This document shows, one piece after another, positions 1 to 32,670 of a stretch of DNA of 64,000 nt (within the stretch, counting starts at the first letter, position 1; each line of letters opens with the position of its first letter). This stretch comes from Escherichia coli (GTDB lineage Bacteria; Pseudomonadota; Gammaproteobacteria; Enterobacterales; Enterobacteriaceae), in the NCBI RefSeq assembly GCF_050320075.1, contig NZ_CP190018.1, one strand, 5' to 3'. The notes under the pieces are model-generated. The model saw nothing but the letters and a program-made list of their open reading frames with translations. It searched no databases and was not told where the DNA came from. Made by a program: the position numbers and the translations under genes.

Positions 1-2959
1 TTTTTGCCGTCAGCCGCCCGTCCGGTGTCAGGGAAAATGCCGGAGGATTACCGCCGCTGGTAATGGTGGGAGCCGTCAGATATTTCAGGAACACTTCATT
101 CATAAATATCTGATCGCCCTGACCAACAAACATCGGCTTTGTGTTGCCATTCGCAGGATTAATCATCGCAATCCTGTCTGCCGCCAGCAGCACCTGACTC
201 TGCATGCCGTCAGGGGTGTTTTCAATACCGGCACCAATACCCGCGATATAAAGGCGTCCGTCCTGCATCTGCTGCAGCTTCACAGCCCACATGCTGCTCA
301 GGTTATTATTTGTATCAACCTGAACCTTCTGTATCTGCTGGATCGCTGCACTCTGGTCTTCCAGTTTCTTATTGACGGTCTGCGTGATTTCATTGCTGAC
401 ATCCGTAATGGACGTCCTGATTTCAGCCAGGTCAGGCGCAAGCTGACCGTTATCAATCTGCGTCCACAGCTCCTGAGCCAGATGGGTTTTCCCTATCTCT
501 CCTTTGAAAAAATCCAGATAGCCGGATGCATCATCACTCGGCTGGCCAACAGCCTCCACAAATGCCGATTTGCCAACGGTGTTCACACTGCGGATGTAAA
601 AATAATAATCACGGCCCGGTTTGATATTGATACTGGCGGCTATCCAGTACAGCGCCGTGCCAAGATAGCGGGCTGTGGTTTCAACCTGCCTGATATCGGT
701 AATCCGCGTTTCCGAGAACCAGAACTCAAACTGTACCGTCGGATCATAAACCGCAAGATGCGGCGTGGCAGTTATCTGAAAATAGCCCGGCGTCAGCTCA
801 ATCCGCGACGGCGCTGCCGGTGCGGCAATCCGGAACGATACCGACGCCGGATCGCCCTGCTGCCCCCAGGCATTTGCCGCCCGGACTGTCAGCCTGTAGT
901 TTCCCAACGCCAGTTGCGTGAAGCGGTATGTGGTTTCCGTCGTCCGGGCCGTGCTGACCAGCCGCTCACTGCCGTCATCCGCTGCCACGGTCAGGCGAAG
1001 CATAAAGCTCACGCCCTTCACCACCTTCGGCGTGTCCCAGCGCGCCAGTACCTGATATTCCCCGCTGTCTGCGGTGACTTCGGCAGTCAGGTGCTGCACC
1101 GCTGGCGGCGTGACACCATTCACCGTGCCACTCTGGTCGCCGTCAAAGTGCGCCCCGTTATCCACGATGGCCTCTTTTTCCGGCACATGCTGCACAGCGG
1201 TGATGGCATACGTGCCGTCGTCGTTCTCACGGATACTCACACAGCGGAACAGGCGCTGACGCAGCATCGGCAGCTTCAGCCCCCACACGCTGTATTCGGC
1301 AACGCCGTCAGGAACACGGCTCACTTTTACCTTCACGCCGTCGGTGACGGACTGGACCTCCACGCTCACCGGATTACCCTGCCCGTCAACCAGGCTTATC
1401 AGCGTGGTACCGGAGGATGGCAGCGTGATTTCACGGTCGAGCGTCAGCGTCCGGGTCTGGCTGTTCACCGCCAGCACGCGACCACCGATGCTGATACCGG
1501 CATAGTCATCATCACAGATTTCAATGACATCGCCCGGTACATGGCGAAGCCCTTCGGCACCCACGCTGAAGTCCACGGTCTGCGTTTCCAGCAGTTCCGT
1601 TTTAATCAGCCACAGCCCGGCGCGGTGCGCCTGCCCCCGGCTGGTACAGCCAAAGGCATCCATCTTCGTGACGTTACGACCGTAACGGAGAATGGCCTGC
1701 GTATCTTCAACAAGCTCTGTCGCCGTCTCCCAGCCGTTATTCGGGTCAATCCAGTTCACCTCAACGGCATTATGGCGGTCCTTCAGGGCGCTGAAGCTGT
1801 AGCGGAACGGCGCGCCATCATCCGGCATCACCACATTACTGTGGTTATAGGTCCACACCTTATCCGACGGTCGGTCCTGCACGAACGTCAGCGTCTGCCC
1901 GTTCCATACCGGCATACAGCGCATCGCCGAACAGAAATCACTGAGCACATCCCACGCCTTACGCTGTGTGGTCAGCCAGGCATTACAGGTGATGCGCGGC
2001 TCCGTACCACCAAAGCCATCCGGCACTGACTGATCGCAATACTGGCCGATGACATACAGCGCCCATTTGTCCACATCCGCCGCACCAAGACGTTTCCCCA
2101 TGCCGTAGCGCGGGTGGGTCAGCATATCCCACAGACACCAGGCCATGTTGTTGCTGTATGCCGGTTTAAACGTCCCGTCCCAGATACCGCTGTATTGCCG
2201 CGTCTGCGGGTTATAGTTCGATGGCACCTGCAGAATGCGCCCGCGAAGATGATAATTACGGCTCACCTGCTGGCTGCCGAACTGTTCCGAGTCCACCTGC
2301 ACGCCGACCAGTGCCGTGTTCGGGTAGCACTGTTTCACATCGATGATTTCAGTGTATGACGACCAGAGCGTTTTGTTCTGCAGCTGGTCTGTGGTGCTGT
2401 CCGGCGTCATCCTGCGCATCCGGATATTAAACGGGCGCGGCGGCAGGTTACCCACCACCACCGATGCCAGATACTGTGAGGTGGTTTTGCCTTTAATGGT
2501 GATGTCTTTTTCCGTCACCCAGCCACCGTTACGCTGTATCTGAACCAGCAGGCGGACTTCCGACGGATTCCGGTCCCCCTTTGAGGTGGTTTCCACCAGT
2601 GCCTGCACACCGAAGGTAAAGCGCAGACGGTCGATGTTTGCAGACGTGATGGTCCGGGTAATCGGCGTGTCGTACTTCACTTCCGTACCCAGCACCGTCT
2701 CGGAGCCGGAGGATTCAAATCCCTCCGGCGGTGTCTGCTCCTGCTCACCTGCCCGGAAAACCACCGTGACACCGGAGATATTGGTATTCCCCTCACTGTC
2801 CAGCACTGGCGTACTGTTCAGCAGCACACTTTTTAATCCGTCCACCGGACCTTCAATCGGCCCTTCACTGATGGCGTCTATCACGCTCAGCATCTGCGTG
2901 GACTTCAGGTTGTCCTTCGCTTCGCGCGGGGTATGCCCCTTACTGCTGCCTTTACCCAT
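1..2959 (-). CDS. J: Tail tip / host specificity protein J (N-terminal ~986 codons; 3' end beyond window)
   Basis: Reverse translation from ATG at 2959 reads [43 protein letters not shown], matching the lambda gpJ N-terminus; not in ORF track because the stop lies outside the window. Confidence 0.9.
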
Positions 2960-3019
2960 TCCTCACGCTCCAGAAACGACAAAACCGCCCTGAGGCGGTT
3001 TCACATAAAACGTTTTTCA

Positions 3020-3691
3020 TCAACGACCAATCACCACAACCTGACCACCGTCCCCCTCGTCTGCCGTGCTGATCTCCTGAGAAACCACGCGTGACCCCAC
3101 GCGCATTTCCCCGTACAGAACAGGCAGAACATTGCCCTGGGCAACCATGTTATCCAGTGAGGAGAAATAGGTGTTCTGCTTACCGTTATCCGTTGTCTGT
3201 GTACGGGGAGTTCTGGCTTTCGGTGCCAGCATCTGCGCCACACCACCGAGCACCATACTGGCACCGAGAGAAAACAGGATGCCGGTCATACCACCGGCCC
3301 CAATGGCTGCCCCCCATGCTGCAAGGGTGGCTCCGGCGGTAAAGAATGATCCGGCAATGGCGGCAGCCCCCAGGACAATCTGGAATACGCCACCTGACTT
3401 GGCCCCGGCGACTCTGGGAACAATATGAATCACAGCGCCATCAGGCAGAGTCTCATGTAACTGCGCCGTTAACCCGGACGTGCTGACGTCCCGCCCGGCA
3501 ATCCGTACCTGATACCAGCCGTCGCTCAGTTTCTGACGAAACGCCGGGAGCTGTGTGGCCAGTGCCCGGATGGCTTCAGCCCCCGTTTTCACACGAAGGT
3601 CGATGCGGCGACCAAATCGTTGTAAATTCCCGTAAAGGCAGATGCGCGCCATGCCCGGTGACGCCAGAGGGAGTGTGTGCGTCGCTGCCAT
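3020..3691 (-). CDS. I: Tail assembly protein I
   Basis: 223-aa ORF MAATHTLPLASPGMARICLYGNLQRFGRR... matches lambda gpI in length and sequence. Confidence 0.93.
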   Translation of the reverse strand: MAATHTLPLASPGMARICLYGNLQRFGRRIDLRVKTGAEAIRALATQLPAFRQKLSDGWYQVRIAGRDVSTSGLTAQLHETLPDGAVIHIVPRVAGAKSGGVFQIVLGAAAIAGSFFTAGATLAAWGAAIGAGGMTGILFSLGASMVLGGVAQMLAPKARTPRTQTTDNGKQNTYFSSLDNMVAQGNVLPVLYGEMRVGSRVVSQEISTADEGDGGQVVVIGR

Positions 3692-4332
3692 TTGTCGGTG
3701 TACCTCTCTCGTTTGCTCAGTTGTTCAGGAATATGGTGCAGCAGCTCGCCGTCGCCGCAGTAAATTGCGGCGTGATTCGGCACCGATGAACCAAAACAGC
3801 ACAGCAGCACATCGCCCGGCTGTGCCGCTGACAACGGCACCTGATACAGCCCCGTCGCCTCCAGATTATCCAGATAGAGATTCTGGCCGTTACGCCACCA
3901 GTCATCCTCACGATGAAAGTCCGGCATCTCAATCCCCGCCAGATGATAAGCATCCCGGAACAGGGTGTAACAGTCCGTCACACCGTGCTCAAAGCGCCGC
4001 CCGGTAAGATGCGGCACACAGCGGAACTTATGAATCGTCCCCCGGCAGACCAGCCACCACGGCAAATCACTCTGCACCTGCAGCCGCCGGTCGGCCTCAC
4101 TCAGCCAGGGCAGACCACCGGGGTGGCTGTGGACCAGCGCCACAATCTCACCCTGCATTTCTGCCTGCAGCCAGTCTTCCGGCGACATACGGAAATACGC
4201 CTCCGGCTCACCGGAGATATTCACGCAGGGGAAATATCTTTCCCCCTCCGGCGTGCTTACCACGAAGCCGCACGACTCCGCTGGCGCACATCGCCGGGCG
4301 TGCGCCAGAATCGCTGATTCTGTCTGTGTCAT
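3589..4332 (-). CDS. K: Tail assembly protein K (JAB/MPN plus NlpC/P60-like); alternative start at 4188 would give the 199-aa lambda-annotated form
   Basis: ORF contains MTQTESAILAHARRCAPAESCGFVV and an HSHPGG JAMM-like motif; overlaps I by ~100 bp as in lambda. Confidence 0.88.
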   Translation of the reverse strand: MTQTESAILAHARRCAPAESCGFVVSTPEGERYFPCVNISGEPEAYFRMSPEDWLQAEMQGEIVALVHSHPGGLPWLSEADRRLQVQSDLPWWLVCRGTIHKFRCVPHLTGRRFEHGVTDCYTLFRDAYHLAGIEMPDFHREDDWWRNGQNLYLDNLEATGLYQVPLSAAQPGDVLLCCFGSSVPNHAAIYCGDGELLHHIPEQLSKRERYTDKWQRRTHSLWRHRAWRASAFTGIYNDLVAASTFV

Positions 4333-4336
4333 GGGA

Positions 4337-5035
4337 TTACTGCGAAAGTTTGTTAATGGAAAGGAAGCCGCCAAAGTTGCCGACGTTATTGCGAAACTTA
4401 CAGCCGCTCAGGCATTTGCTGCATTTATCCTTCGTGATATCGGACGTCGGCTGGTCATATTCATCCGCGACCGCCGGACCGTGATAACCGCACTCATCAC
4501 CGCGATAGGTCCAGGTGCAGGTATTAGCAAGCATGATGCGCCCCGGAAAAACAGCGCCGTCCGTTTCCGTCGGCGTGGACAGTACAAAGGAGGCACTGAC
4601 CGCGCTCAGTTCGCTGCACTGCTCAATACGCCAGCGGCTGATCACCTCCTGCTCCGGATCGGCGTCACTGTTTCCGTTGACGAAGTTCACCGCATCCAGA
4701 AAACGGGCGTAAACCTTACGCCTGACCACCGTTCCGCCGACCAGACTCTGCAGGTCTTCCGCCATCCCGGTGACCATACCGTACAGGTTAGAAACCGTCA
4801 GCGTGGGGCGCGTACTGGTGCCTTTGCCATTCAGTTCAAAACCGCTCCCCTGAATGGGATACGGCTGATACTGTCGCCCCTGCCAGGTGACCGGCTCACC
4901 TTTTTCGTTCTGCTCATTACAGAAAAAATAACGTTCTCCACCGACCTCTGTCAGGTCGATTTCCCAGAGCACCAAGCTGGCCGACTGCTCCGCACGGGTG
5001 CATTCATTCAGTGTTTCCTGCCGGATATCCTGCAT
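4337..5035 (-). CDS. L: Minor tail protein L
   Basis: 232-aa ORF MQDIRQETLNECTRAEQSAS... matches lambda gpL. Confidence 0.93.
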   Translation of the reverse strand: MQDIRQETLNECTRAEQSASLVLWEIDLTEVGGERYFFCNEQNEKGEPVTWQGRQYQPYPIQGSGFELNGKGTSTRPTLTVSNLYGMVTGMAEDLQSLVGGTVVRRKVYARFLDAVNFVNGNSDADPEQEVISRWRIEQCSELSAVSASFVLSTPTETDGAVFPGRIMLANTCTWTYRGDECGYHGPAVADEYDQPTSDITKDKCSKCLSGCKFRNNVGNFGGFLSINKLSQ

Positions 5036-5364
5036 CAGTTCACCACCTGTTCAAACTCTGCGCTGAACTCAACACGCAGCATACTGACCCGCGACGACCA
5101 TTTTGCGCAGGTCACCTTTATCTGCCGCCACTCATAAGGCGGCGTCCACAGAAAGGATTTCCAGCCCCCGTGCTCTTCCAGAAACGACTCCAGTACCATG
5201 GCCTCCTCACGGGGGACAGAAAGCGTCACGCTGTACGTTTTCAGGTTGGCATTCAGCCCGGCAGGCGCTCGCTGGGAATAGCCATCACCAAAGCGCACCT
5301 TTCTTACAGAAGGGGCCGAAGCCACATCCATACCGGGTTTCACTTTCCAGCGGAAGGTTTTCAT
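5035..5364 (-). CDS. M: Minor tail protein M
   Basis: 109-aa ORF MKTFRWKVKPGMDVASAPSVRKVRFGDGYSQ... matches lambda gpM. Confidence 0.93.
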   Translation of the reverse strand: MKTFRWKVKPGMDVASAPSVRKVRFGDGYSQRAPAGLNANLKTYSVTLSVPREEAMVLESFLEEHGGWKSFLWTPPYEWRQIKVTCAKWSSRVSMLRVEFSAEFEQVVN

Positions 5365-7940
5365 CGTCCACCTCCGGAGAACAGGCCACCATCACGCATC
5401 TGTGTCTGAATTTCATCACGGGCACCCTTGCGGGCCATGTCATACACCGCCTTCAGAGCAGCCGGACCTATCTGCCCGTTCGTGCCGTCGTTGTTAATCA
5501 CCACATGGTTATTCTGCTCAAACGTCCCGGACGCCTGCGACCGGCTGTCAGCCAGACTGCCCGGTGTACCGACATAACCACCGGTGGCATAGCCGCGCAT
5601 CAGCCGGTAGAGATTCCCCACGCCAATCCGGCTGGTTGCCTCCTTCGTGAAGACAAATTCACCACGGTGAACAATCCCCGCTGGCTCATATTTGCCGCCG
5701 GTTCCTGTGAATCCTCCGGTTGCAAAATGGAATTTCGCCGCAGCGGCCTGAATGGCTGTACCGCCTGACGCGGATGCGCCGCCACCAACAGCCCCGCCAA
5801 TGGCGCTGCCGATACTCCCGACAATCCCCACCATTGCCTGCTTAAGCAAAATTTCTGTCATCATGGACAGCACGGATCGGGTGAAGCTGCGCCAGTTCTG
5901 TTCACTGCCGGTCAGCATCGCCGCCATATTCTGTGCAATACCATCAAAGGTCTGCGTGGCTGCACTTTTAACCTGCGACATACTGTCCGTGGCGCTCTCT
6001 TCCCACTCACTCCAGCCGGACTTCAGGCCTGCCATCCAGTTCCCGCGAAGCTGGTCTTCAGCCGCCCAGGTCTTTTTCTGCTCTGACATGACGTTATTCA
6101 GCGCCAGCGGATTATCGCCATACTGTTCCTTCAGGCGCTGTTCCGTGGCTTCCCGTTCTGCCTGCCGGTCAGTCAGCCCCCGGCTTTTCGCATCAATGGC
6201 GGCCCGTTTTGCCCGTTGCTGCTGTGCGAATTTATCCGCCTGCTGCGCCAGCGCGTTCAGGCGCTCCTGATACGTAACCTTGTCGCCAAGTGCAGCCAGC
6301 TGGCGTTTGTACTCCAGCGTCTCATCTTTATGCGCCAGCAGGGATTTCTCCTGTGCAGACAGCTGGCGACGTTGCGCCGCCTCCTCCAGTACCGCGAACT
6401 GACTCTCCGCCTTCCACAAATCCCGGCGCTGCTGGCTGATTTTCTCATTTGCTCCGGCATGCTTCTCCAGCGTCCGGAGTTCTGCCTGAAGCGTCAGCAG
6501 GGCAGCATGAGCACTGTCTTCCTGACGATCGCCCGCAGACACCTTCACGCCGGACTGTTTCGGCTTTTTCAGCGTCGCTTCATAATCCTTTTTCGCCGCC
6601 GCCATCAGCGTGTTGTAATCCGCCTGCAGGATTTTCCCGTCTTTCAGTGCCTTGTTCAGTTCTTCCTGACGGGCGGTATATTTCTCCAGCGGCGTCTGCA
6701 GCCGTTCGTAAGCCTTCTGCGCCTCTTCGGTATATTTCAGCCGTGATGCCTCAGACTCGGCCCGATCTTTTGCTGCCATCTCACTGGCCTTTTCAAGATC
6801 TGCCTGCAACGTGGCGGCTGAAAGCCCAAGTCGCGCATTCTCTCTCTTCTCCCATGCCCCCCGGAGATTGGCAAGAAATGCTGACGTTTTACCGCGCCGG
6901 TGGCTTCGGCTCTGATACCACTGCCATTTTTTATCCGCTTCATCAAAAGCCTTTTCAGCTTTGGCGAGCATATCTGCAGAGGAGTCCGGGCGGCCAATAT
7001 CCAGCACCGCATCCCACATGGATTTGAATGCCTGTGCAGTCTTGTCTGCCCAGGTCTCCAGCGTACCCATGTTATCTTTCAGTTTACGGGTCTGGTCATC
7101 AAACCCTTTCGTTGCGGCCTCGTTCGCCGCCTGCAATGCCCCGGCCCCATCGCCGGAACGCTGCAACTGAGCAACATACGCAATCTGCTCCGCCGTCACG
7201 TTATGGAACTGGCGCGCCATCGCCGTCAGCCCCGACGTCGGGTCAGTGGTCAGCTTCCCGAAGGCTTCAGCGACCTTGTCCACCTCCACACCGGATGCAG
7301 AGGAGAAACGCGCCACACTCTGGCTGATTGCCTCAAACTGCTCACCACCACGCACACCGGCATTCACCAGCGCCGTCAGTGACTCGCTGGTCTGGTTAAA
7401 CGTCAGCCCTGCCGCCTGCCCGGATCTGGACAGGGCCAGCATACGATCTGCCGTCAGTCCCGCCTGATTACCGGAAAGGACCAGCGTTTTATTGAAATTG
7501 GACAGGGTTGAGTCACCCTGATACCAGGCATACGCCAGCGCACCGGTCGCCACCGCCAGCGAAGTGATACCAACCATCGGCAGGGTGATCGCACCGGCAA
7601 GCCCCCTGAACATGGGGATCATCCCGCCGAAGGAGTCCTTCACCTGACCACCCTGTTGCAGCAGGATGAGCCACGGATTCTGCCCCCCTGCAAGCTGCGT
7701 GGCCACGTCGGTGAACTGCGCAGGCAGCATACGCATGGCAGCTTTATACTGCCCGACGGAAATCCCCGCTTTCTGTGCAGCCAGCGCCTGCCGGTTTATT
7801 GACTGTTCAACGACTGCCGCTGTTTTTTTCGCATCACTTTCCGTACCGGAAAAATGACGCCTGACTCTGGCCATCTGCTCGTCAAATCTGGCCGCATCCA
7901 GACTTAAATCAACGACCAGATCGCCTACCGGTTCAGCCAT
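5361..7940 (-). CDS. H: Tail tape measure protein H
   Basis: 859-aa ORF MAEPVGDLVVDLSLDAARFDEQMARVRRHF... with coiled-coil middle and Gly-rich C-terminus, as in lambda gpH. Confidence 0.93.
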   Translation of the reverse strand: MAEPVGDLVVDLSLDAARFDEQMARVRRHFSGTESDAKKTAAVVEQSINRQALAAQKAGISVGQYKAAMRMLPAQFTDVATQLAGGQNPWLILLQQGGQVKDSFGGMIPMFRGLAGAITLPMVGITSLAVATGALAYAWYQGDSTLSNFNKTLVLSGNQAGLTADRMLALSRSGQAAGLTFNQTSESLTALVNAGVRGGEQFEAISQSVARFSSASGVEVDKVAEAFGKLTTDPTSGLTAMARQFHNVTAEQIAYVAQLQRSGDGAGALQAANEAATKGFDDQTRKLKDNMGTLETWADKTAQAFKSMWDAVLDIGRPDSSADMLAKAEKAFDEADKKWQWYQSRSHRRGKTSAFLANLRGAWEKRENARLGLSAATLQADLEKASEMAAKDRAESEASRLKYTEEAQKAYERLQTPLEKYTARQEELNKALKDGKILQADYNTLMAAAKKDYEATLKKPKQSGVKVSAGDRQEDSAHAALLTLQAELRTLEKHAGANEKISQQRRDLWKAESQFAVLEEAAQRRQLSAQEKSLLAHKDETLEYKRQLAALGDKVTYQERLNALAQQADKFAQQQRAKRAAIDAKSRGLTDRQAEREATEQRLKEQYGDNPLALNNVMSEQKKTWAAEDQLRGNWMAGLKSGWSEWEESATDSMSQVKSAATQTFDGIAQNMAAMLTGSEQNWRSFTRSVLSMMTEILLKQAMVGIVGSIGSAIGGAVGGGASASGGTAIQAAAAKFHFATGGFTGTGGKYEPAGIVHRGEFVFTKEATSRIGVGNLYRLMRGYATGGYVGTPGSLADSRSQASGTFEQNNHVVINNDGTNGQIGPAALKAVYDMARKGARDEIQTQMRDGGLFSGGGR

Positions 7941-8367
7941 ACCGGACTCCTCCTGCGATCCCTTCTGATACTGTCATCAGCATTACGTCATCCTCCGTCA
8001 TGTCCGCCACATACGGGGAAGCGGGGATAACTTCATTCCCGTCCGGGCCAAAACGAACGCCTCCGGCAAGCCCTGCCGCTTTCTGCATCAGCACATCATC
8101 TTCAGGCTCTTCGCCAGCCTCACGCCGGTTCAGCAGACTGAAATCCAGCGGATGCATATCCGGATCGCTGAAAAACAGGCTGAGCACGGTGTACGTCAGC
8201 CCGGAAAAATGCATATCCAGCAGAACATCATGAAAATAATGGGTACTGTAAAAGCGGTGCCAGTCGGCATACTCCGTGGATGACATCCCGGCAAGCATGG
8301 CGCGCCAGTCGGGTCGCCCCATCTCTCGCGCCAGTTTCAGGGCAAAACTCAGCTCACCGTCGAACAC
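7933..8367 (-). CDS. T: T frame of the tail assembly chaperone; expressed only as the G-T fusion by -1 frameshift
   Basis: ORF (V)FDGELSFALKLAREMGRPDWRAMLAGMSSTEYADWHRFY... matches lambda T; no independent start. Confidence 0.85.
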   Translation of the reverse strand: MFDGELSFALKLAREMGRPDWRAMLAGMSSTEYADWHRFYSTHYFHDVLLDMHFSGLTYTVLSLFFSDPDMHPLDFSLLNRREAGEEPEDDVLMQKAAGLAGGVRFGPDGNEVIPASPYVADMTEDDVMLMTVSEGIAGGVRYG

Positions 8368-8762
8368 TTTCCCGCAGAAACAGGCTCTGCAGGCCCGGCG
8401 TCATCTGCCTGTTCAGGGGCATTATTCACCACAAACTCATACATTCCGGACAGCCGGTACACCACGTTTTCAGCATGAGAAATTGCCTCTGTGGGCCAGG
8501 TGGTAAGCACTTCCTGCTCAATCTGTTTAACGGCTTCATTCATGGACGGCATCTGCGTCTTCTGCGGATGGTTATGCCACAGGGACATCGCCACCACAAA
8601 AGCGCCGGTTCTGATGACGTCTTCCACAGTAAACTTCCGGTTGCTGTCGGATTCTGCCTGCTGTTTCATCAGAGCGAGATGCTCAATACGCTGCAGGGCT
8701 GACAGTTCAGAAAGCGTGACGGTCACGCCGTTATATTCAAATGATTCGGTTTTCAGGAACAT
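8349..8762 (-). CDS. G: Tail assembly chaperone G
   Basis: 137-aa ORF MFLKTESFEYNGVTVTLSELSALQRIEHLALMKQQ... matches lambda gpG. Confidence 0.92.
   Translation of the reverse strand: MFLKTESFEYNGVTVTLSELSALQRIEHLALMKQQAESDSNRKFTVEDVIRTGAFVVAMSLWHNHPQKTQMPSMNEAVKQIEQEVLTTWPTEAISHAENVVYRLSGMYEFVVNNAPEQADDAGPAEPVSAGKCSTVS
8367..8373 (-). promoter_or_regulatory. G-T programmed -1 ribosomal frameshift slippery heptamer GGGAAAG
   Basis: Plus strand CTTTCCC at 8367..8373 is the reverse complement of GGGAAAG, located at the 3' end of G where the T frame opens. Confidence 0.8.
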
Positions 8763-8777
8763 CGCTGACTCTCCGGA

Positions 8778-9518
8778 TTAACTGGCGGTGACGGTGATTT
8801 CTGCAACCGCAGCAAACTCACCATTACCGGATACGACCGGAATGTTGACCTTGCCTGCAGCAACGCCGTTCACGGTGATGGTCATACCACTGACCGACAC
8901 GGTGGCTTTTGTTTTATCCGAAGACACCGCACGGAAGCTCTTGTCGGTTACGCCTTCCGGCTGGAATGCCACGGTCAGCGTGGTGCTCTGTCCTTTCACT
9001 ACGGACGCACTGGCTGGCGTTACCGTCATGCCGGTTGCCGCCGTCACCGTACTGCGATCTTCAGCCATCGACGGGCGTCCCACATTGGTGACCTTCACCG
9101 TGCGGGTGATCACTTCCTTCGCCGTCACCGCTTTACCGATACTGCTGACCCAGCCACGGAACACATCGACCGTGCCGTTAGGAAAGCGGATTTTATAGGC
9201 ACGGGTATCACCTTCATTAAACCACGCCAGCAGCGCCTGCTGCCCCTGCTCTCCGGGCATCCACGCCAGCGTGAAGCTGGTATCTCCGGCAGATTTCTGC
9301 CCCTGCCCGGTCGCAGTCCAGTCCGCATCTTCATCATCGAGATAGCTGTCGTCATAGGACTCAGCGGTCAGTTCGCCGGGTGTCAGGTCTTTAACTTTTG
9401 CCAGACGCGACCAGTCAACGTCTGAAAGCGGGTTCGCATAAGGGTCACCGTTCCCCTTATAAACCCACAGTGTGGTCCCGGCCCCTTTCACCGGTGCCAG
9501 AGGATTTGGTGTTGGCAT
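8778..9518 (-). CDS. V: Major tail tube protein V (with C-terminal Ig-like domain)
   Basis: ORF from internal Met [42 protein letters not shown]... matches lambda gpV (246 aa). Confidence 0.92.
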
Positions 9519-9525
9519 ATCGTCC

Positions 9526-9921
9526 TCACATTTCATAGGTAATGACATAAGTCAGATCGGCTGAACTCCACAGGCCCGCATCATCGTCGCGCCGGTAGTC
9601 ATAGCCACTGGCCACCATACTGGTGATCAAATCTGACAGTGCCGGGATATCGCTCATCACCGGATAAATCCGGGACTCCATCCACGCATCCAGCTCTGAA
9701 TCCGGCACCTGAGCAGGCAGGAAAACTTCGATATGCAGCTCCGCCTGCCAGGTATCGCTGTCCAGCTCTTCGCCCGTGTATTCAGCGCCGGTGAGATAAA
9801 CGGCAACTGCCGGAAAATCCGCCTCATCAAAAACAGCGGGGCGACCATCAAAAAGCGTCGCCCCGGTGTCATGCTTCTCCAGTGCATCCAGTACGGCTGC
9901 ACGGAGTTCAGTATGTTTCAT
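9526..9921 (-). CDS. U: Tail terminator protein U
   Basis: 131-aa [51 protein letters not shown]... matches lambda gpU. Confidence 0.93.
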
Positions 9922-10496
9922 CGCTTTATTACCATTCTCAGTTGATGCTGCAGCGCATAGCCCAGCTCTTTCGGAAGACGCTCACGCCGTATCCGCTCAA
10001 TATTCTGTTTAAACGCCGTGGTCAGCGGCACCGCCATCGGGATTTTCACCACATCAATGGGGTAACGGTTTTTCCCGGCCACACGCTGCATGACATGCCA
10101 CCGGCCATTTTTCAGTTGCTGAATAAACGCGCCGGGAATACGACGGTTTCCCACCACAAGCACGCTGCCGCCACCTTTCAGGGATGAACGCTGCCCCTTT
10201 TTACGACGCCTGCGGCGGGACAGGACAACCCGCGCATTACCCAGCCTGATTACGGGCAAATCCCCCCGGTTAACCCTGATTCTGGCCTGCGGATTTTTGA
10301 CCGTGGCCCTTTTCAGCCTGGCCCTTTCCTTTACCAGTTTCCGGCGTACCTTTGTCTCACGGGCAACCTGTGACGCAGACTGCGATATCGCGGATGAAGC
10401 AACGCGGTTAATGGCCATTGCGGCGGCACCGGGCACCGCCGTTTTGCTGATACGGCTGAGGTTTTCAACGGCCTGCTCAAGACCTTTTATGGCCAT
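9918..10496 (-). CDS. Z: Tail completion protein Z
   Basis: 192-aa ORF in the conserved position between U and FII; size and order match lambda gpZ. Confidence 0.88.
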   Translation of the reverse strand: MAIKGLEQAVENLSRISKTAVPGAAAMAINRVASSAISQSASQVARETKVRRKLVKERARLKRATVKNPQARIRVNRGDLPVIRLGNARVVLSRRRRRKKGQRSSLKGGGSVLVVGNRRIPGAFIQQLKNGRWHVMQRVAGKNRYPIDVVKIPMAVPLTTAFKQNIERIRRERLPKELGYALQHQLRMVIKR

Positions 10497-10507
10497 ACAT
10501 CCCCCTT

Positions 10508-10861
10508 TCAGCGGCGACGGTTAACGGCAGGCGGTACGCCCCGCCCAAGCCAGAGATGACAGCTTCCGCCATCATCCGGCGTAACCCGATCTACCCAGAA
10601 GTTTTCCTCACCGATGATCAGCGTGTCTCCACGCCGCAGCTGCCGCACATCATCAGTCCGGACAAACAGGGACGGGCTGGAGCCTTCAACGCGCACGCCC
10701 TGTCCGGCATAGCTGATATTTTCAGGGTCATCAAAAACACCACGTATCACCGCACCGGACTGCTCACCGGATGTAATGGTGGCTGACGTTCCCATGTACC
10801 CGCGTATCGTTTCATCAGCGCGGGCAATGGCAGCATCGAACAGGTTATCGAAATCAGCCAC
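10508..10861 (-). CDS. FII: Head-tail connector protein FII
   Basis: 117-aa ORF in the lambda FII position and of the lambda FII size. Confidence 0.88.
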   Translation of the reverse strand: MADFDNLFDAAIARADETIRGYMGTSATITSGEQSGAVIRGVFDDPENISYAGQGVRVEGSSPSLFVRTDDVRQLRRGDTLIIGEENFWVDRVTPDDGGSCHLWLGRGVPPAVNRRR

Positions 10862-10872
10862 AGCGCCTCCCG

Positions 10873-11271
10873 TTATTGCATTCTGGCCAGGCCACGTTCT
10901 GTCATTTCGGCTGCCACACCGGCAGAGACACGAAACGCCGTTCCCGGCAGCACAAATGCCACAGGTTTATCCCGCGTGGCGTGAAGCGCATCAGTATGCA
11001 GCGTCACCAGTGCCACGACCGTGACCAGTTCAGCCGTATCCTGAATCACGGTATCCGGCTGCGCTGATACCACCTCATTTTCATGCCCGGTCAGCACATT
11101 TTCCCGGCTGAGAGGGGTGTCCTGACCGGCAGTTTCATCCGTGTCATCAAGCTCTTCTTCCAGCTCTGCCACACGAAGCGCCAGTTCTTCTTTCGTTCCC
11201 GTCAAACTGACATCGCGGTTCAGTTGCTCACCCAGCGACCGGAGACGGACAATCAGTTCATCTTTCGTCAT
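10873..11271 (-). CDS. FI: DNA packaging protein FI
   Basis: MTKDELIVRLRSLGEQLNRDVSLTGTKEELALRVAELEEELDD... matches lambda gpFI (132 aa from the MTKDEL start). Confidence 0.9.
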   Translation of the reverse strand: MTKDELIVRLRSLGEQLNRDVSLTGTKEELALRVAELEEELDDTDETAGQDTPLSRENVLTGHENEVVSAQPDTVIQDTAELVTVVALVTLHTDALHATRDKPVAFVLPGTAFRVSAGVAAEMTERGLARMQ

Positions 11272-11312
11272 GAACTCCTCCACAGAGAGAAAATGGCCCC
11301 GAAGGGCCATGA

Positions 11313-12338
11313 TTACGCCAGTTGTACAGACACGAACTCATCAGGATCAGCCAGCAGCATCAGCGGTGCTGACTGAATCATGGTGAACTCACGCGCCGGA
11401 TCGCCGGTGGTCACCCAGTTTTTCGGGTAACGGGCAGAGGCGTTAATGCCTTCGCGCTGTGCGTCCGCATCCTGAATGCAGCCATAGGTGCGCAGACCGC
11501 GTGCCTGAGTGTTCCCCAGCACCATCGTGTTGTCCGGCAGGAAGTTCTTTTTGACGCCGTTTTCCACGTACTGTCCGGAATACACGACGATGGCCACATC
11601 GCCATACATCCCCTTATAGGACACCGCTTTGCCCAGGTCTTTCACCGCTGTCTCCAGCTCGGAATGAGAGCCACGACGGGTATCCAGCTTCTCCTTGACG
11701 GCTTTGAAGGAACGGAACAGCGCCCAGCCTTTCGGATCGAACACGATGATATTCACCACACCGCTGGCGTTCAGCGCGTAGGCTTCGATATCGTCGGTCG
11801 GGTCATACGTGGACTTGTCACGCTTGCTCCACTCCGTGCCGCCGGACTGCGTGATGTTATTCTCCTCACTGCGGCCCATATCCACCTCAACCGGATCGAA
11901 GGCTTCACCGGTCATGGTGTATTTGCCCTTAAGCACGGCAGAAACTGCCTGCATCTCTTCGACCTGAGCAATGGCCAGCTCTTCGTCACGCATGTTCTGC
12001 AGGATGATGCGACGGCGGCGGTAAGCCGGGTCCGCCAGATTCTGCGGATCTTCATCCGGCAGGCGACGCAGGGTCATCTGCGGATTCACTTCATGCTTCG
12101 GCTTGACATATCCCGGCGTAAATTCAGAGGTGGAGCCGCCACGGGAACGGATAACCTCACCGGAAACAATCGGCGAAACGTACAGCGCCATGTTTACCAG
12201 TCCCGGAATTTGTGAGAGATAGACTTTCTCCGTGGTGAAGGGATAGCTCTCACGGAAAAAGAGACGCAGAAACAGCGGATCAAACTTAAATTTCTGCTCA
12301 TTTGCCGCCAGCAGCTGGGCGGTTGTGTACATCGACAT
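11313..12338 (-). CDS. E: Major capsid protein E
   Basis: MSMYTTAQLLAANEQKFKFDPLFLRLFFRESYPFTTEKVYLSQIPGL... matches lambda gpE (341 aa). Confidence 0.95.
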   Translation of the reverse strand: MSMYTTAQLLAANEQKFKFDPLFLRLFFRESYPFTTEKVYLSQIPGLVNMALYVSPIVSGEVIRSRGGSTSEFTPGYVKPKHEVNPQMTLRRLPDEDPQNLADPAYRRRRIILQNMRDEELAIAQVEEMQAVSAVLKGKYTMTGEAFDPVEVDMGRSEENNITQSGGTEWSKRDKSTYDPTDDIEAYALNASGVVNIIVFDPKGWALFRSFKAVKEKLDTRRGSHSELETAVKDLGKAVSYKGMYGDVAIVVYSGQYVENGVKKNFLPDNTMVLGNTQARGLRTYGCIQDADAQREGINASARYPKNWVTTGDPAREFTMIQSAPLMLLADPDEFVSVQLA

Positions 12339-12393
12339 AAAAAAATCCCGTAAAAAAAGCCGCACAGGCGGCCTTTAGTGATGAAGGGTAAAG

Positions 12394-12726
12394 TTAAACG
12401 ATGCTGATTGCCGTTCCGGCAAACGCGGTCCGTTTTTTCGTCTCGTCGCTGGCAGCCTCCGGCCAGAGCACATCCTCATAACGGAACGTGCCGGACTTGT
12501 AGAACGTCAGCGTGGTGCTGGTCTGGTCAGCAGCAACCGCAAGAATGCCAACGGCAGCACCGTCGGTGGTGCCATCCCACGCAACCAGCTTACGGCTGGA
12601 GGTGTCCAGCATCAGCGGGGTCATTGCAGGCGCTTTCGCACTCAATACGCCGGGCGCGGTTGCGGTATGAGCCGGGTCACTGTTGCCCTGCGGCTGGTAA
12701 TGGGTAAAGGTTTCTTTGCTCGTCAT
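12394..12726 (-). CDS. D: Capsid decoration protein D
   Basis: [26 protein letters not shown]... 110 aa, matches lambda gpD. Confidence 0.95.
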
Positions 12727-12735
12727 AAACATCCC

Positions 12736-14035
12736 TTACACTGGTGTGTTCAGCAAATCGTTAACGGCATCAGATGCCGGGTTACCTGCAGCCAGCGGTG
12801 CCGGTGCCCCCTGCATCAGACGATCCAGCGCAGTGTCACTGCGCGCCTGTGCACTCTGTGGTGCAGCTGCCAGAATGCGGCGGGCCGTTTCCACGGTCAT
12901 ACCGGGGGTTTCTGCCAGCACGCGGGCCTGTTCTTCGCGTCCGTGAGCCTCCTCACAGTTGAGGATCCCCATAATGCGGCTGTTTTCTGCCGCAACCGCA
13001 GCGGTGATCTGCGCGTTCACGTCCGGCTGCGCCGCGCTGGCGTTTTCGCCCTCCGTCGCTGGCACCACGTCAGTAACGTCAGCCTGCGAAGCAGTGGCTG
13101 AAACAGTTGTTGATTGAGTCTCTTTGGTCATTCGCCCTCCTGAGAGACGGGATTTACGTGCATCCAGTGCATCACGCATAACGGTGATCGCATCGGTACT
13201 GTTAACAAGTTCATCAGCCAGTCCGGCATCAATGGCCTCCTGACCGCTGTACACTGCAGCCTCGGTATCCAGCACAGCCTGCACAGACAGGCCGGTATAT
13301 GCCGACACCTTCTGCGCAAACATCTGGCGGGTTGCGTCCATCCGGGACTGCAGTGTCTCCCGGACGTCATCCGGAAGATGGCTGTAGGGATTGCCATCCA
13401 CCTTATGGCTGCCGCTGTAAATCAGCGTGATTTCCACGCCCTGTTTCTCCAGCGCAGCACCGTAATTGCTGTGAGCCATCATGACGCCGATGGAGCCTGT
13501 CCGGGCGGTCTGCGTGACCAGACGCCGGGAGGCGGCGCTGGCAAGCAGCTGACCTGCACTGCAGTTCATGTCGTTGGCCAGCGCCCATACCGGTTTTATG
13601 TCTCGCACACGGGCGATGATGTCAGCACAGTCAAATGCTCCCGCCACCATCCCGCCCGGTGTGTCCATATCCAGCAGAATGCCGTCCACCATCGGATCGC
13701 TGGCAGCCTGTTGCAGACGGGCGATAATGCCGTTGTAACCGGTCATCCCCGAGTACGGCTGCAGCGCCCGCGTCCGGCTGACCAGCGTACCGGACACCGG
13801 CAGCACGGCGATGCCGTTCATGACCTGATAGCTGCGGGCCTGTCGTGGTCCGTCATCATCACCGGATAACGCCAGCGCCGCGGGTGCCTCTCCGGCAGTC
13901 AGGCTGTCGCCGGATACTGCATCCGTCAGGCGGCTGATCCCAAGCTGGCCTGCAAGCGCACAAAAGAAAACCCGCGCATAGGCGGGTTCAAGCATCAGCG
14001 GCTCATTAAAAGCCATGCTGGCAATATGCGGGAGA

Positions 14036-14055
<20 letters not shown>
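12736..14055 (-). CDS. C: Capsid assembly protease C (S49 family); scaffold Nu3 is nested in-frame in its 3' part
   Basis: (GTG start preceded by AGGAG) TAELRNLPHIASMAFNEPLMLEPAYARVFFCALAGQLG... matches lambda gpC (439 aa). Confidence 0.92.
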
Positions 14056-17736
<3,681 letters not shown>

Positions 17737-17762
<26 letters not shown>

Positions 17763-18282
17763 TCAGCAACCCCGGTATCAGTTCATCCAGCGCGGCTGCT
17801 TTGTTCATGGCTTTGATGATATCCCGTTTCAGGAAATCAACATGTCGGTTTTCCAGTTCCGGAAAACGCCGCTGTACCGAGAGAGGGATCCCGTCAAGAA
17901 TACTGGCAATTTCACCTGCGATCCGTGACAGCACGAAAGTACAGAATGCGGTTTCCACCACCTCTGCGGAGTCTCTGGCATTCTTCAGCTCCTGTGCGTC
18001 GGCCTGCGCACGCGTAAGTCGATGGCGTTCGTACTCAATAGTCCCAGGCTGGAGATCTGCCTCACTGGCAGCCCTGTAATCCTCAACCTCTTTACGGAGT
18101 TTTTCATTTTCGATATCAGCTTCCCTCTGCGCATACCACTGAATTGCCATGGCGGTATCAAATACAGATTCAACGCCCTTACCACCTCCGGAGACGCAAG
18201 GGAGTCCCTGAGACTGCCAGCGTTCAATCGTTCGCGGATCCACGTTGAAAATTTCGGCAAGTTTCTTTTTATTAACCTTCAT
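17737..18282 (-). CDS. Nu1: Terminase small subunit Nu1 with a divergent (phage-21-like) N-terminal DNA-binding domain
   Basis: 181-aa ORF; C-terminal ~100 aa match lambda Nu1 ([54 protein letters not shown]...) while the first ~80 aa ([54 protein letters not shown]) differ from lambda as I recall it. Confidence 0.9.
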
Positions 18283-18299
18283 GAAACAGTCTCACAATA

Positions 18300-18420
18300 A
18301 ATACAGGGGCCGACATGAAAGTGCCCGAAAATGACTTTTTTAGGCGTTTTCATGTCGGACCTTTTACGGATTCGATATTAGAAAAAACAAATAGTTATGT
18401 TCGAGAAGTACCGACATGAT
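18300..18420. promoter_or_regulatory. cosB: three R-type repeats (CCGACATG at 18310..18317 and 18411..18418, inverted copy CATGTCGG at 18351..18358); putative small-terminase binding sites
   Basis: Three copies of an 8-bp motif, the middle one inverted, between cosN and the Nu1 start; sequence differs from lambda cosB. Confidence 0.6.
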
Positions 18421-18458
18421 TTTCCCCAGAAAATTTTCATAAATAGCGAAAACCCGCG

Positions 18459-18470
18459 AGGTCGCCGCCC
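18459..18470. other. cosN cohesive-end site (12-nt overhang GGGCGGCGACCT on the minus strand)
   Basis: Plus strand AGGTCGCCGCCC is the reverse complement of the lambda cohesive end; flanking sequence (CGCGGGTTTTCGCTATTTATGAAAATTTTC on minus) matches the lambda left end and the sequence to the right matches the lambda right end. Confidence 0.85.
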
Positions 18471-18669
18471 CGTAACCTGTCGGATCACCGGAAAGGACCC
18501 GTAAAGCGATAATGATTATCATCTACATATCACAACGTGCGTGGAGGCCATCAAACCACGTCAAATAATCAATTATGACGCAGGTATCGTATTAATTGAT
18601 CTGCATCAACCTAACGTAAAAACAACTTCAGACAATACAAATCAGCGACACTGAATACAGGGCAACCTC

Positions 18670-18903
18670 ATGTCAACGAAGAACAGAACCCGCAGAACAA
18701 CAACCCGCAACATCCGCTTTCCTAACCAAATGATTGAACAAATTAACATCGCTCTTGTTCAAAAAGGGTCCGGGAATTTCTCAGCCTGGGTCATTGAAGC
18801 CTGCCGCCGGAGACTGTGCTCAGAAAAAAGAGTTTCGCCTGAAGCAAACAAAGAAAAGAGTGACATTACTGAATTGCTCAGAAAACAGGTCAGACCAGAT
18901 TGA
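18670..18903 (+). CDS. YlcI-like small prophage protein
   Basis: 77-aa ORF MSTKNRTRRTTTRNIRFPNQMIEQINIALVQKGSGNFSAWVIEACRRRL... resembles the DLP12 ylcI product. Confidence 0.6.
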   Translation: MSTKNRTRRTTTRNIRFPNQMIEQINIALVQKGSGNFSAWVIEACRRRLCSEKRVSPEANKEKSDITELLRKQVRPD

Positions 18904-18960
18904 AGCAATTTAGATAATCGTGCAGACTACGCCCCCTCATATCACATGGAAGGTACTACA

Positions 18961-19371
18961 ATGGCTCAGATTGCCATTTTTAAACAAATATTCGATAAAG
19001 TGCGAAATAATTTAAACTATCACTGGTTTTATTCTGAACTAAAACGTCACAATGTCTCACATTACATTTACTATTTAGCCACAGAGAATATTCATCTTGT
19101 TCTTGAAAACGATAATACGGTTTTAATAAAAGGACAGGGTAAGGTTGTAAATGTAAGATTTTCAAAAAATAAATGCCTTATAGAAGCCACCTTAAAAGGA
19201 TTCAAATCAGGAGAGTTATCATTTTACGAATACAGGAAAAATCTTGCTACAGCAGGGGTTTTCAGATGGATTACAAATATCCACGAAAACAAAAGGTATT
19301 ACTATACCTTTGATAATTCATTACTCTTTACTGAGAACATTCAGAACACTACACAAATATTTCCGCACTAA
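18961..19371 (+). CDS. YbcV-like prophage protein (DUF1398 family)
   Basis: [58 protein letters not shown]... resembles DLP12 YbcV; low GC. Confidence 0.65.
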
Positions 19372-19678
19372 ATCATAACGTCCGGTTTCTTCCGTGCCAG
19401 AACCGGACTCGCTGGCATGATGAAATATGTGTACCCGGTAACCCCGGTGTGCATCGTTTTTGATTATTCCCCCACACTTGTGCAGAAGGAGTTCCCCGTC
19501 AGGCTACAGTCATAATTAATGCAAGAGTACAGCGACGATACAGCGCACAGAAATAAATCAGGTATCCATTGACTTCACAAAGACGGTACATAGCATCGAC
19601 AGGAGTAATTGCGTAAATTGAACTCTTGGCACACTTTAGCCACCGGCGAATCTTCAGCGGATTATCCTTGGCCGGTTT

Positions 19679-20155
19679 TTATCTGAGGCATTGCTCTCGA
19701 ATGTATAGCTGTGCCCCTTCAAGTTGTTTTTGCATTATTATCAGTCGCGCTCTGAGGGTGAAATAATCCCGTTCAGCGGTGTCTGCCAATCGGGGGGAGG
19801 CTGCATTATCCACGCCGGAGGCGGTGGTGGCTTCACGCACTGACTGACAGACTGCTTTGATGTGCAACCGACGACGACCAGCGGCAACATCATCACGCAG
19901 AGCATCATTTTCAGCTTTCGCATCAGCTAACTCCTTCGTGTATTTTGCATCGAGCGCAGCAACATCACGCTGACGCATCTGCATGTCAGTAATTGCCGCG
20001 TTCGCCAGCTTCAGTTCTCTGGCATTTTTGTCGCGCTGGGCTTTGTAGGTAATGGCGTTATCACGGTAATGATTAACAGCCCATGACAGGCAGACGATGA
20101 TGCAGATAACCAGAGCGGAGATAATCGCGGTTACTCTGTTCATTGCTGACCCCAC
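19679..20155 (-). CDS. Rz: Spanin inner-membrane subunit Rz (i-spanin); likely true start near 20143
   Basis: (...)[59 protein letters not shown]... matches lambda Rz. Confidence 0.9.
19741..19923 (-). CDS. Rz1: Spanin outer-membrane lipoprotein Rz1 (o-spanin), embedded in Rz in the +1 frame
   Basis: 60-aa [63 protein letters not shown]: lipobox LVVVGC and proline-rich segment as in lambda Rz1. Confidence 0.88.
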
Positions 20156-20637: not shown

Positions 20638-20852
20638 TATTCACCTCTCGCAGCCTTGCGCTTATCTTCTTTAATCTTGAAATAAAGGTTTGTCAGGTAC
20701 GTCAGCAGGCCAAATACCAAGCTACCCAGCACACCTATTGCTGCCCACTGTGAGGGCGTGACTTTATCGAGCAGCTGTAAAAACCAGTAGCCAGCACTGC
20801 CTGCGGAGGTGCCGTAGGCAATGCCCGTTGTTAACTTATCCATGGATTTCAT
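20637..20852 (-). CDS. S: Pinholin S (class II, two TMDs, dual-start motif MKSM), phage-21 S type
   Basis: 71-aa [74 protein letters not shown] directly upstream of the SAR endolysin. Confidence 0.88.
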
Positions 20853-23798: not shown

Positions 23799-23835
23799 AA
23801 TCCCTACCCGAAATAATACTTATTAGAATAAATAT

Positions 23836-23859: not shown

Positions 23860-23865
23860 CAAATG

Positions 23866-32646: not shown

Positions 32647-32670
32647 TGCCTTATCAGTTAACGCCGCAGT

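What the first reader, a model, noticed from the sequence alone, without database searches (positions are those of the whole stretch)
8349..8373. Conserved G-T programmed frameshift site
The slippery heptamer GGGAAAG (minus strand) sits a few codons before the G stop, and the T frame has no start codon of its own. This reproduces the lambda gpG/gpGT tail-chaperone frameshift and indicates the tail assembly module is intact.
Basis: established knowledge. Interest (0 to 1): 0.2.

Follow-up and report, generated by a model that had tools for sequence, protein, structure and literature searches.

The report
Lambda G-T tail chaperone frameshift site
This is the textbook ribosome-slip signal that lets a lambda-like prophage in E. 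coli make two tail-assembly helper proteins (G and the longer G-T) from one message; it is real and conserved, but already well known.

Summary
On the minus strand, GGGAAAG lies at 8373..8367, phased G_GGA_AAG in gene G (8762..8349, 137 aa), five sense codons before the G stop (8351..8349). The -1 frame stays open for 146 codons to 7933 and encodes the lambda T domain.

The region is 96% identical to phage lambda G-T. The roughly 60 nt around the slip site are identical to lambda. In 75 of 77 relatives with a complete G-frame ORF, the heptamer keeps the same phase and the same distance from the stop. The codons GCG GGA AAG never vary, although the G tail just upstream varies at every position.

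Two details in the finding need correcting:
- The T frame does have a start-type codon, GTG 8367..8365. GenBank and PGAP both use it as the T start. It has no ribosome-binding site, and relatives replace it with GTC, GCC or GCG, so it is unlikely to be a real start.
- The slip site alone does not show that the tail module is intact. Comparing each gene with lambda shows Z to I are full length. J is cut by the window edge.

The host prophage has no recognisable N gene and carries an IS200 between Q and the late genes, so expression after induction is uncertain.

Verdict: an already known feature of low interest.

The parts
8349..8762 (-). Gene G, tail assembly chaperone. 137 aa, ATG start at 8762, stop TGA at 8351..8349.
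   Evidence: Matches TIGR01674 at E=6e-61 and PF06894 at E=1e-56. It is 93.6% aa identical to lambda G, with a 3-codon deletion.
8771..8774 (-). Shine-Dalgarno GGAG, 8 nt upstream of the G start codon.
   Evidence: Read directly from the sequence. The phage 434 record annotates a ribosome-binding site at the same place.
8367..8373 (-). Slippery heptamer G_GGA_AAG, the -1 shift site. Gly-Lys is encoded in both frames.
   Evidence: Identical to the lambda heptamer at 10109..10115. Invariant in 58 distinct G sequences. Named as the lambda G/GT slippery sequence in PMC3296357 Table 1 and in PMC7618472.
8349..8351 (-). G-frame stop codon TGA, five sense codons after the heptamer. Shifted ribosomes bypass it.
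   Evidence: The five-codon distance is kept in 75 of 75 intact relatives.
8401..8403 (-). Nearest upstream stop (TGA) in the T frame. Any shift that yields G-T must occur between this stop and the G stop, within 8400..8352.
7933..8367 (-). T reading frame (-1 relative to G). 144 codons from GTG 8367 to TGA 7935..7933, translated as the C-terminal extension of G-T.
   Evidence: Matches TIGR01715 at E=8e-56 and PF06223 at E=1.5e-13. It is 98.6% aa identical to lambda T. The GTG is replaced by GTC, GCC or GCG in relatives.
7933..8762 (-). Predicted G-T fusion CDS: 8762..8367, then base 8367 is read again, then 8367..7933. 276 aa, 30.8 kDa, junction ...PVSAGK|VFDGEL...
   Evidence: 96.1% identical to lambda G-T. 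phrog_32165, a 290-position profile, covers G and T as a single protein. Curated records for phages 434 and O276 annotate the same two-piece join.
8778..9518 (-). Gene V, major tail tube protein, the upstream neighbour.
   Evidence: Matches PF16461 and Big_2. It is 97.6% identical to lambda V.
5361..7940 (-). Gene H, tape measure protein, the downstream neighbour. Its start overlaps the T stop by 8 nt.
   Evidence: Matches PF06791 and PF09718. It is 859 aa against 853 aa in lambda, and 90.7% identical.

Best explanation
This is the G/G-T programmed -1 ribosomal frameshift site of a lambda-type tail gene cluster. The cluster belongs to a lambdoid prophage integrated at the lambda attB site of an E. 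coli chromosome.

Most ribosomes translating the late mRNA read GCG GGA AAG, then five more codons, and stop. This gives G (137 aa, 15.2 kDa). A small fraction slip back one base while tRNA-Gly and tRNA-Lys occupy GGA AAG. They re-pair on GGG AAA, bypass the G stop and continue through the T frame. This gives G-T (276 aa, 30.8 kDa).

By analogy with lambda, the slip rate is a few per cent, so the G to G-T ratio is roughly 30:1. G and the G part of G-T coat the tape measure protein H. The T part recruits the tube protein V. Neither protein ends up in the finished tail.

Shown here: the anatomy, the homology and the conservation of the site. Inferred from lambda: that slipping occurs, its rate and the chaperone mechanism.
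For: Anatomy:
- The phase, the distance to the stop and the 146-codon -1 ORF are as described.
- It is the only one of the 10 GGGAAAG copies in the window with this arrangement.

Homology:
- 96.2% nt identity to lambda, with the sequence around the site identical.
- G and T match equivalog-level NCBIfam models and Pfam models above cut-off.
- A PHROG profile spans G and T as one protein.
- The fusion is 96.1% identical to lambda G-T.
- The gene order V-G-T-H matches lambda.

Selection on the site:
- 75 of 77 IMG/VR relatives with a complete G-frame ORF keep G_GGA_AAG five codons before the stop, with a long -1 ORF. Their nt identity to the window is 76-97%.
- GCG GGA AAG is invariant in 58 distinct sequences. 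Only 34% of conserved-residue codons are invariant overall, and the 14 amino-acid columns just upstream all vary.
- Between the heptamer and the G stop, the differences among relatives include four changes that are synonymous in the T frame, while every change is non-synonymous in the G frame (my count from the contexts listed). This suggests that selection acts on the T frame from the heptamer onward.

Literature:
- The lambda slippery sequence is GGGAAAG, with about 96% zero-frame reading. The same tRNA-Lys(UUU) decodes AAG and AAA (PMC3296357).
- The G to G-T ratio is about 30:1 and the chaperone model is described in PMC5009743.
- G_GGA_AAG is highly shift-prone in E. coli (PMC5009743).
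Against: - There is no protein or ribosome-profiling evidence for this strain.
- A GTG codon sits at the 5' end of the T frame, and both GenBank J02459 and PGAP annotate T as an independent CDS.
- No stable RNA structure is predicted around or downstream of the site (z = -0.96), so no stimulator was identified. From my own recollection, not checked here, lambda is not known to need one.
- The prophage may not express its late genes.
Confidence: 0.95

Rival explanations
1. T is translated on its own from GTG 8367..8365, as a separate 144-aa protein, with no frameshift. This is how J02459 and PGAP annotate it.
For: The mechanical ORF call starts at that GTG. T is annotated as a separate CDS in lambda J02459, HK630 and both E. 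coli genomes.
Against: - There is no Shine-Dalgarno sequence. The only GGA lies 2 nt from the GTG, whereas G has GGAG 8 nt upstream and H has a GGAGGAG run shortly before its ATG.
- At the same position, 15 of the 75 relatives have GTC, GCC or GCG, which are not start codons, while the heptamer never changes.
- Curated phage records annotate a joined G-T CDS.
- Reviews state that the T domain is produced as the frameshift product gpGT (PMC5009743, PMC4493119).
Confidence: 0.03
2. The site is intact but silent. The prophage is cryptic or defective, so G and G-T are not made on induction, and the sequence is simply inherited from a recent lambda-like ancestor. This is compatible with the best explanation for what the site is. 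It disputes only the 'intact' and 'inducible' reading.
For: - There is no ORF of 40 aa or more in the ~590 nt between the SIR2 gene and the kil-like gene. tblastn with lambda N, cIII, ea10 and ral finds nothing, and there is no lambda boxA or boxB.
- IS200 lies between Q and the lysis and late genes. A sister genome has ISCro1 inserted into that IS200.
- PGAP marks two prophage genes as pseudogenes.
Against: - All 20 head and tail genes from Nu1 to J are full length, with no internal stops, and most are 90-100% identical to lambda (Nu1 and J are 83%).
- int, xis, exo, bet, O, P, Q, holin, endolysin and Rz are present.
- Antiterminators of lambdoid phages are diverse, so a search with lambda N can miss one.
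- By analogy with Q-dependent antitermination in lambda (established knowledge), Q-modified polymerase would be expected to read through inserted DNA.
Confidence: 0.3
3. The heptamer is there by chance, or G-T arises from RNA polymerase slippage rather than ribosomal slippage.
For: The heptamer count in the window is no higher than expected (10 against 7.2).
Against: - The position, phase and distance to the stop are conserved in 75 of 77 relatives, and the codons are invariant at synonymous sites.
- The longest homopolymer runs are only 3 nt (GGG, AAA). From established knowledge, this is far shorter than the runs of 6-9 or more that support transcriptional slippage.
- In lambda, the frameshift rate responds to tRNA-Lys U34 modification, which points to a ribosomal event (PMC3296357).
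Confidence: 0.01

Closest known systems
Phage lambda G / G-T -1 programmed ribosomal frameshift (Levin, Hendrix and Casjens 1993; Xu, Hendrix and Duda 2013, 2014)
   Same: The heptamer G_GGA_AAG, the five codons to the G stop, the roughly 60 nt around the site, the V-G-T-H gene order, the T ORF length (144 codons) and the overlap of the T stop with the H start are all the same. The G-T protein is 96.1% identical.
   Different: G lacks three codons (lambda ...RQAEQAESD... against ...QQAESD... here), so G is 137 aa rather than 140 and G-T is 276 aa rather than 279. There are eight further substitutions in G-T. H is 6 aa longer. The site lies in a chromosomal prophage with non-lambda immunity, Q and lysis genes.
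Conserved tail assembly chaperone frameshift of long-tailed dsDNA phages (Xu, Hendrix and Duda 2004)
   Same: Two overlapping ORFs lie between the major tail gene and the tape measure gene. The second is reached by a low-rate shift near the end of the first (PMC5009743, PMC4493119).
   Different: That class is defined by gene position and often has no sequence similarity, with various slippery sequences. The present case is a close sequence relative of the founding member.
E. coli dnaX gamma/tau frameshift (A_AAA_AAG)
   Same: It is a -1 shift that depends on weak AAG decoding by the single tRNA-Lys (mnm5s2UUU) of E. coli (PMC5009743).
   Different: From established knowledge, dnaX uses an upstream Shine-Dalgarno-like element and a downstream stem-loop to reach about 50% shifting. 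Here no significant structure is predicted and the expected rate is a few per cent.

Membership tests
Lambda-type G/G-T tail chaperone -1 frameshift | Two overlapping ORFs located between the major tail tube gene and the tape measure gene | tested here: met
   The order is V 8778..9518, G 8349..8762, T 7933..8367 and H 5361..7940, all on the minus strand.
Lambda-type G/G-T tail chaperone -1 frameshift | The upstream ORF is a lambda G-family tail assembly chaperone | tested here: met
   TIGR01674 (equivalog) scores 204 bits against a cut-off of 74. PF06894 scores 191 bits against 27.
Lambda-type G/G-T tail chaperone -1 frameshift | The downstream ORF is in the -1 frame and encodes the T domain | tested here: met
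   The frame was checked. TIGR01715 scores 187 bits against a cut-off of 77. PF06223 scores 51 bits against 26.
Lambda-type G/G-T tail chaperone -1 frameshift | A slippery heptamer X_XXY_YYZ, in phase with G, inside the stretch where both frames are open | tested here: met
   G_GGA_AAG at 8373..8367 lies within the 8400..8352 overlap.
Lambda-type G/G-T tail chaperone -1 frameshift | The site is conserved among relatives beyond what protein coding requires | tested here: met
   75 of 77 relatives keep the site. The three codons are invariant in 58 distinct sequences, against a background of 34% invariant codons.
Lambda-type G/G-T tail chaperone -1 frameshift | T has no translation start of its own and is made only as a fusion | tested here: inconclusive
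   A GTG is present at 8367. It has no Shine-Dalgarno sequence and is not conserved, being GTC, GCC or GCG in 15 relatives. Showing that no initiation occurs there requires an experiment.
Lambda-type G/G-T tail chaperone -1 frameshift | G and G-T are both produced, at a low fixed ratio of about 30:1 | not testable with these tools
   This needs a western blot, mass spectrometry or a reporter assay. The lambda values come from PMC3296357 and PMC5009743.
Lambda-type G/G-T tail chaperone -1 frameshift | G binds the tape measure protein and the T domain binds the tail tube protein | not testable with these tools
   This is inferred from 94-99% identity to the lambda proteins. No solved structure matches by sequence.

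The most novel reading that the evidence does not exclude
The prophage may be defective for induction: it has no recognisable N gene and carries an IS200 between Q and the late operon. Even so, its whole head-tail module, including the exact G-T recoding signal, may be kept by selection because the host uses it, for example for tailocin-like or transducing particles, or for rescue by recombination with infecting lambdoid phages. Nothing found here requires this reading. Recent acquisition explains the intact genes equally well.
Probability: 0.05. Interest if true: 0.35.

Novelty: already known. Interest (0 to 1): 0.05.

Why it matters
It matters little as a discovery. The site is a near-identical copy of one of the first programmed frameshifts ever described.

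Its practical value lies in annotation. PGAP, the original lambda record and the HK630 record list G and T as two separate genes (HK630 even names the T ORF 'GT'). The biologically meaningful product, a 276-aa G-T fusion, is therefore missing from the protein sets of thousands of E. coli genomes.

The site is also a convenient positive control for frameshift-finding methods. The heptamer is not enriched on its own, and only its context and conservation identify it.

Tried and rejected
- Counting heptamers as a significance test. The count is not informative (10 against 7.2 expected), so I replaced it with a test of context and of conservation.
- A downstream or flanking RNA stimulator. The 131 nt around the site (8400..8270) fold no better than shuffled sequence (z = -0.96), so I claim no structure.
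- A solved structure for G-T. There was no PDB sequence match at E <= 0.01. I did not run structure prediction because it would not change the verdict.
- The primary lambda papers by Xu et al. 2013 and 2014 (PMC3762263, PMC3907469) are not held in the library. Levin et al. 1993 is cited only through reviews, and my statements about it are from memory where marked.
- I first used the NZ_CP123240 annotation for the whole window. Beyond about window 24132 it is offset by a 2707-nt ISCro1 insertion that the window lacks. I switched to NZ_CM192149.1, which has 3 mismatches over 28 kb.
- A search for lambda N and nut sites found nothing. This does not prove that an antiterminator is absent.
- The large protein-database, metagenome and genome scans were deliberately not run, because the question was settled without them.

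Full report
**What is at the coordinates.** The minus strand at 8380..8341 reads tttctgcGGGAAAGtgttcgacggtgagcTGAgttttgcc. GGGAAAG occupies 8373..8367. It starts 389 nt after the ATG of a 137-codon ORF (8762..8349). The zero-frame reading is therefore GCG GGA AAG TGT TCG ACG GTG AGC TGA, which is the phased pattern G_GGA_AAG followed by five sense codons and the stop at 8351..8349. In the -1 frame the same bases read GGG AAA GTG TTC GAC..., and this frame stays open for 146 codons to TGA 7935..7933. That stop overlaps the ATG (7940) of the next gene. Upstream, the -1 frame is closed by TGA 8403..8401. Any shift that joins the two ORFs must therefore occur within 8400..8352, and the heptamer is the only slippery pattern in that stretch.

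**One detail is wrong as written.** The finding says the T frame has no start codon of its own. The frame's first start-type codon is GTG 8367..8365, which overlaps the last base of the heptamer. The original lambda record J02459 and NCBI's PGAP both annotate T as a separate 144-aa CDS starting at that GTG. What holds is that there is no ATG before 8322 and no Shine-Dalgarno sequence at a workable distance, since the only GGA lies 2 nt from the GTG. By contrast, G has GGAG 8 nt upstream of its ATG, and H has a GGAGGAG run shortly before its own. The relatives give the strongest argument against the GTG being a start (see the conservation paragraph).

**Is it more than chance?** The heptamer alone is not. 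The window holds 10 copies against 7.2 expected, and 19 of 100 shuffles reach 10. Context separates the copies. Only the 8367 copy has a long zero-frame ORF upstream (135 codons), a stop within 7 codons and a long -1 ORF (146 codons, 138 of them beyond the zero-frame stop).

**Identity of the genes.**
- The 901-nt segment 7900..8800 is 96.2% identical to lambda J02459 9673..10582 and 98% identical to prophage YDC107_1. The alignment shows no differences for roughly 60 nt around the slip site.
- The upstream ORF matches TIGR01674 (phage tail assembly chaperone G, 204 bits against a cut-off of 74) and PF06894.
- The downstream ORF matches TIGR01715 (tail assembly protein T, 187 bits against 77) and PF06223.
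- phrog_32165, a 290-position profile, aligns to G over positions 1-142 and to T over 140-285, so it models the fused protein.
- The neighbours are the tube protein V (8778..9518) and the tape measure protein H (5361..7940).
- The predicted fusion (8762..8367, base 8367 read again, then to 7933) is 276 aa and 30.8 kDa. It is 96.1% identical to lambda G-T, with one 3-residue gap.
- Curated records for phages 434 and O276 annotate exactly this two-piece join.

**Conservation.**
- A scan of IMG/VR with the G protein returned 80 loci, 65-94% identical at the protein level. Of the 77 with a complete G-frame ORF, 75 have G_GGA_AAG in phase, exactly five codons before the stop, followed by a -1 ORF. 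That ORF is 105-154 codons long wherever the locus does not end first.
- The two exceptions (L066, L084) still hold the heptamer but have 4-nt and 10-nt insertions upstream in G. They are broken copies or assembly errors.
- Among 58 distinct G sequences (76-97% nt identity to the window), the codons GCG GGA AAG never vary. Only 34% of codons for conserved, degenerate residues are invariant across G, and all 14 amino-acid columns just upstream vary.
- The codon after the slip in the T frame is GTG, GTC, GCC or GCG. The supposed GTG start is therefore not conserved, while the heptamer is.
- Between the heptamer and the G stop, the differences among relatives include four changes that are synonymous in the T frame (GTG/GTC, GCC/GCG, GAC/GAT, GGT/GGC). 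Every change alters the G-frame residue (C/S/R/P, T/S/M, V/A). This is my count from the contexts and columns. Selection thus appears to act on the T frame from the heptamer onward, as expected if T is translated as a continuation of G.

**Mechanism.** Shown here: the anatomy, the homology and the selective constraint. Inferred from lambda:
- About 4% of ribosomes slip back one base on GGGAAAG. Both AAG and AAA are read by the single E. coli tRNA-Lys (mnm5s2UUU), and lower thiolation of that tRNA raises the slip rate (PMC3296357, PMC7618472).
- G and G-T are needed at about 30:1. G and the G part of G-T bind the tape measure protein, the T part recruits the tube protein, and neither is found in the virion (PMC5009743, PMC4493119).
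- G_GGA_AAG is listed among the most shift-prone heptamers in E. coli (PMC5009743).
- No stable RNA structure is predicted around the site (MFE -53 kcal/mol against -49.4 +/- 3.7 for shuffles, z = -0.96), so I claim no stimulator.

**Is the tail module intact?** The slip site cannot show this on its own, as L066 and L084 illustrate. I tested it directly against lambda. Z, U, V, G, T, H, M, L, K and I are all full length, without internal stops, and 90.7-100% identical to lambda (K and I over the aligned part). The differing K and I lengths reflect the choice of start codon. J runs off the window, which holds 2959 of its 3480 nt. In NZ_CP123240, which is identical to the window over bases 1..24000, J is a complete 1159-aa ORF followed by lom and tail-fibre genes. 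The head genes Nu1 to FII are also full length.

**Genomic setting.**
- The window is E. coli chromosome and essentially identical to strain Ec-U3 (NZ_CM192149.1): bases 1..24000 match fully, and 17000..45000 differ at 3 positions in 28 kb.
- The prophage sits in the lambda attachment site between gal and bio. The core GCTTTTTTATACTAA is at 41621..41607, next to int (40463..41533) and ybhC.
- Its late region is lambda-like, but its immunity, Q and lysis genes are not.
- I could not recognise an N-type antiterminator. About 590 nt separate a SIR2-family gene from the kil-like gene, with no ORF of 40 aa or more. tblastn with lambda N, cIII, ea10 and ral finds nothing, and there is no lambda boxA or boxB.
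- An IS200 lies between Q and the lysis and late genes, and PGAP marks two prophage genes as pseudogenes.
Expressing the cloned G-T segment is the cleaner test.

**Verdict.** The finding is real and its main interpretation is correct. It is also entirely ordinary: a near-identical copy of the lambda G/G-T recoding site, present in a large share of E. coli genomes (at least 80% of the first 24 kb of the window is matched in 1230 of 5426 complete genomes). Novelty is 'already known' and interest is very low. The only practical point is that automatic annotation still lists G and T separately and omits the fusion protein.

Noticed in passing
window 33814..35415 (+): A 533-aa SIR2-family gene lies directly downstream of the cI-like repressor (33009..33701), in the position that rexAB occupies in lambda. 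It matches the PADLOC candidate defence family PDC-S25 at E=3e-235, and more weakly the SIR2 region of Thoeris ThsA at E=1e-21. It is probably a prophage-borne anti-phage defence gene expressed in the lysogen.
   Followed up: partly
window 35416..36003: About 590 nt separate the SIR2 gene from the kil-like gene, with no ORF of 40 aa or more. tblastn with lambda N, cIII, ea10 and ral finds nothing anywhere in the window, and there is no lambda boxA or boxB. No N-type antiterminator is recognisable, so the prophage may be defective for induction or may use a different mechanism.
   Followed up: partly
window 23936..24394 (-): An IS200-family transposase gene lies between the Q antiterminator gene (24665..25042) and the lysis and late genes. 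In the otherwise identical prophage of strain YZLc1-3, this IS200 is itself split by a 2707-nt ISCro1 (IS66 family) insertion near window 24132.
   Followed up: partly
window 21046..21770 (-) and about 27471..27794 (-): PGAP marks two prophage genes as pseudogenes in the identical Ec-U3 record: a frameshifted helix-turn-helix gene upstream of the holin, and a P22AR C-terminal-domain gene with an internal stop.
   Followed up: no
window 41607..41621 (-), with int at 40463..41533: The lambda att core GCTTTTTTATACTAA marks the junction between prophage and host next to ybhC, so the prophage occupies the classical lambda attB between gal and bio. The other junction lies outside the window, beyond the truncated J gene (window 1..2959).
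   Followed up: yes
window 29688..30020 (-) (emrE) and 27906..29432 (-) (ybcK): The efflux gene emrE and a serine-recombinase gene (ybcK) sit in the region between ren and Q, as in the cryptic prophage DLP12. This shows the mosaic make-up of the element: a lambda-like late region joined to a DLP12-like right arm.
   Followed up: no
window 7933..8762 (-); records NZ_CP123240.1, NZ_CM192149.1, J02459.1, JQ086376.1: PGAP and older phage records annotate G and T as separate CDSs, with T starting at GTG, and have no ribosomal-slippage join. HK630 even names the T ORF 'GT'. Prophage YDC107_1 omits G and shortens T to 93 aa. The 276-aa fusion is therefore missing from these records' protein lists.
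   Followed up: yes
L066 about 1865..1905; L084 about 1610..1625: Two IMG/VR relatives carry 4-nt and 10-nt insertions inside G that break its frame, while the heptamer and the T frame remain unchanged. They are decaying prophage copies or assembly errors.
   Followed up: partly
window 5361..7940 (-) and 8640..8670 (-): The tape measure protein H is 859 aa against 853 aa in lambda (90.7% identical), which predicts a slightly longer tail. G lacks three codons (QAE) of a short repeat that lambda has, and prophage YDC107_1 shares this deletion.
   Followed up: no
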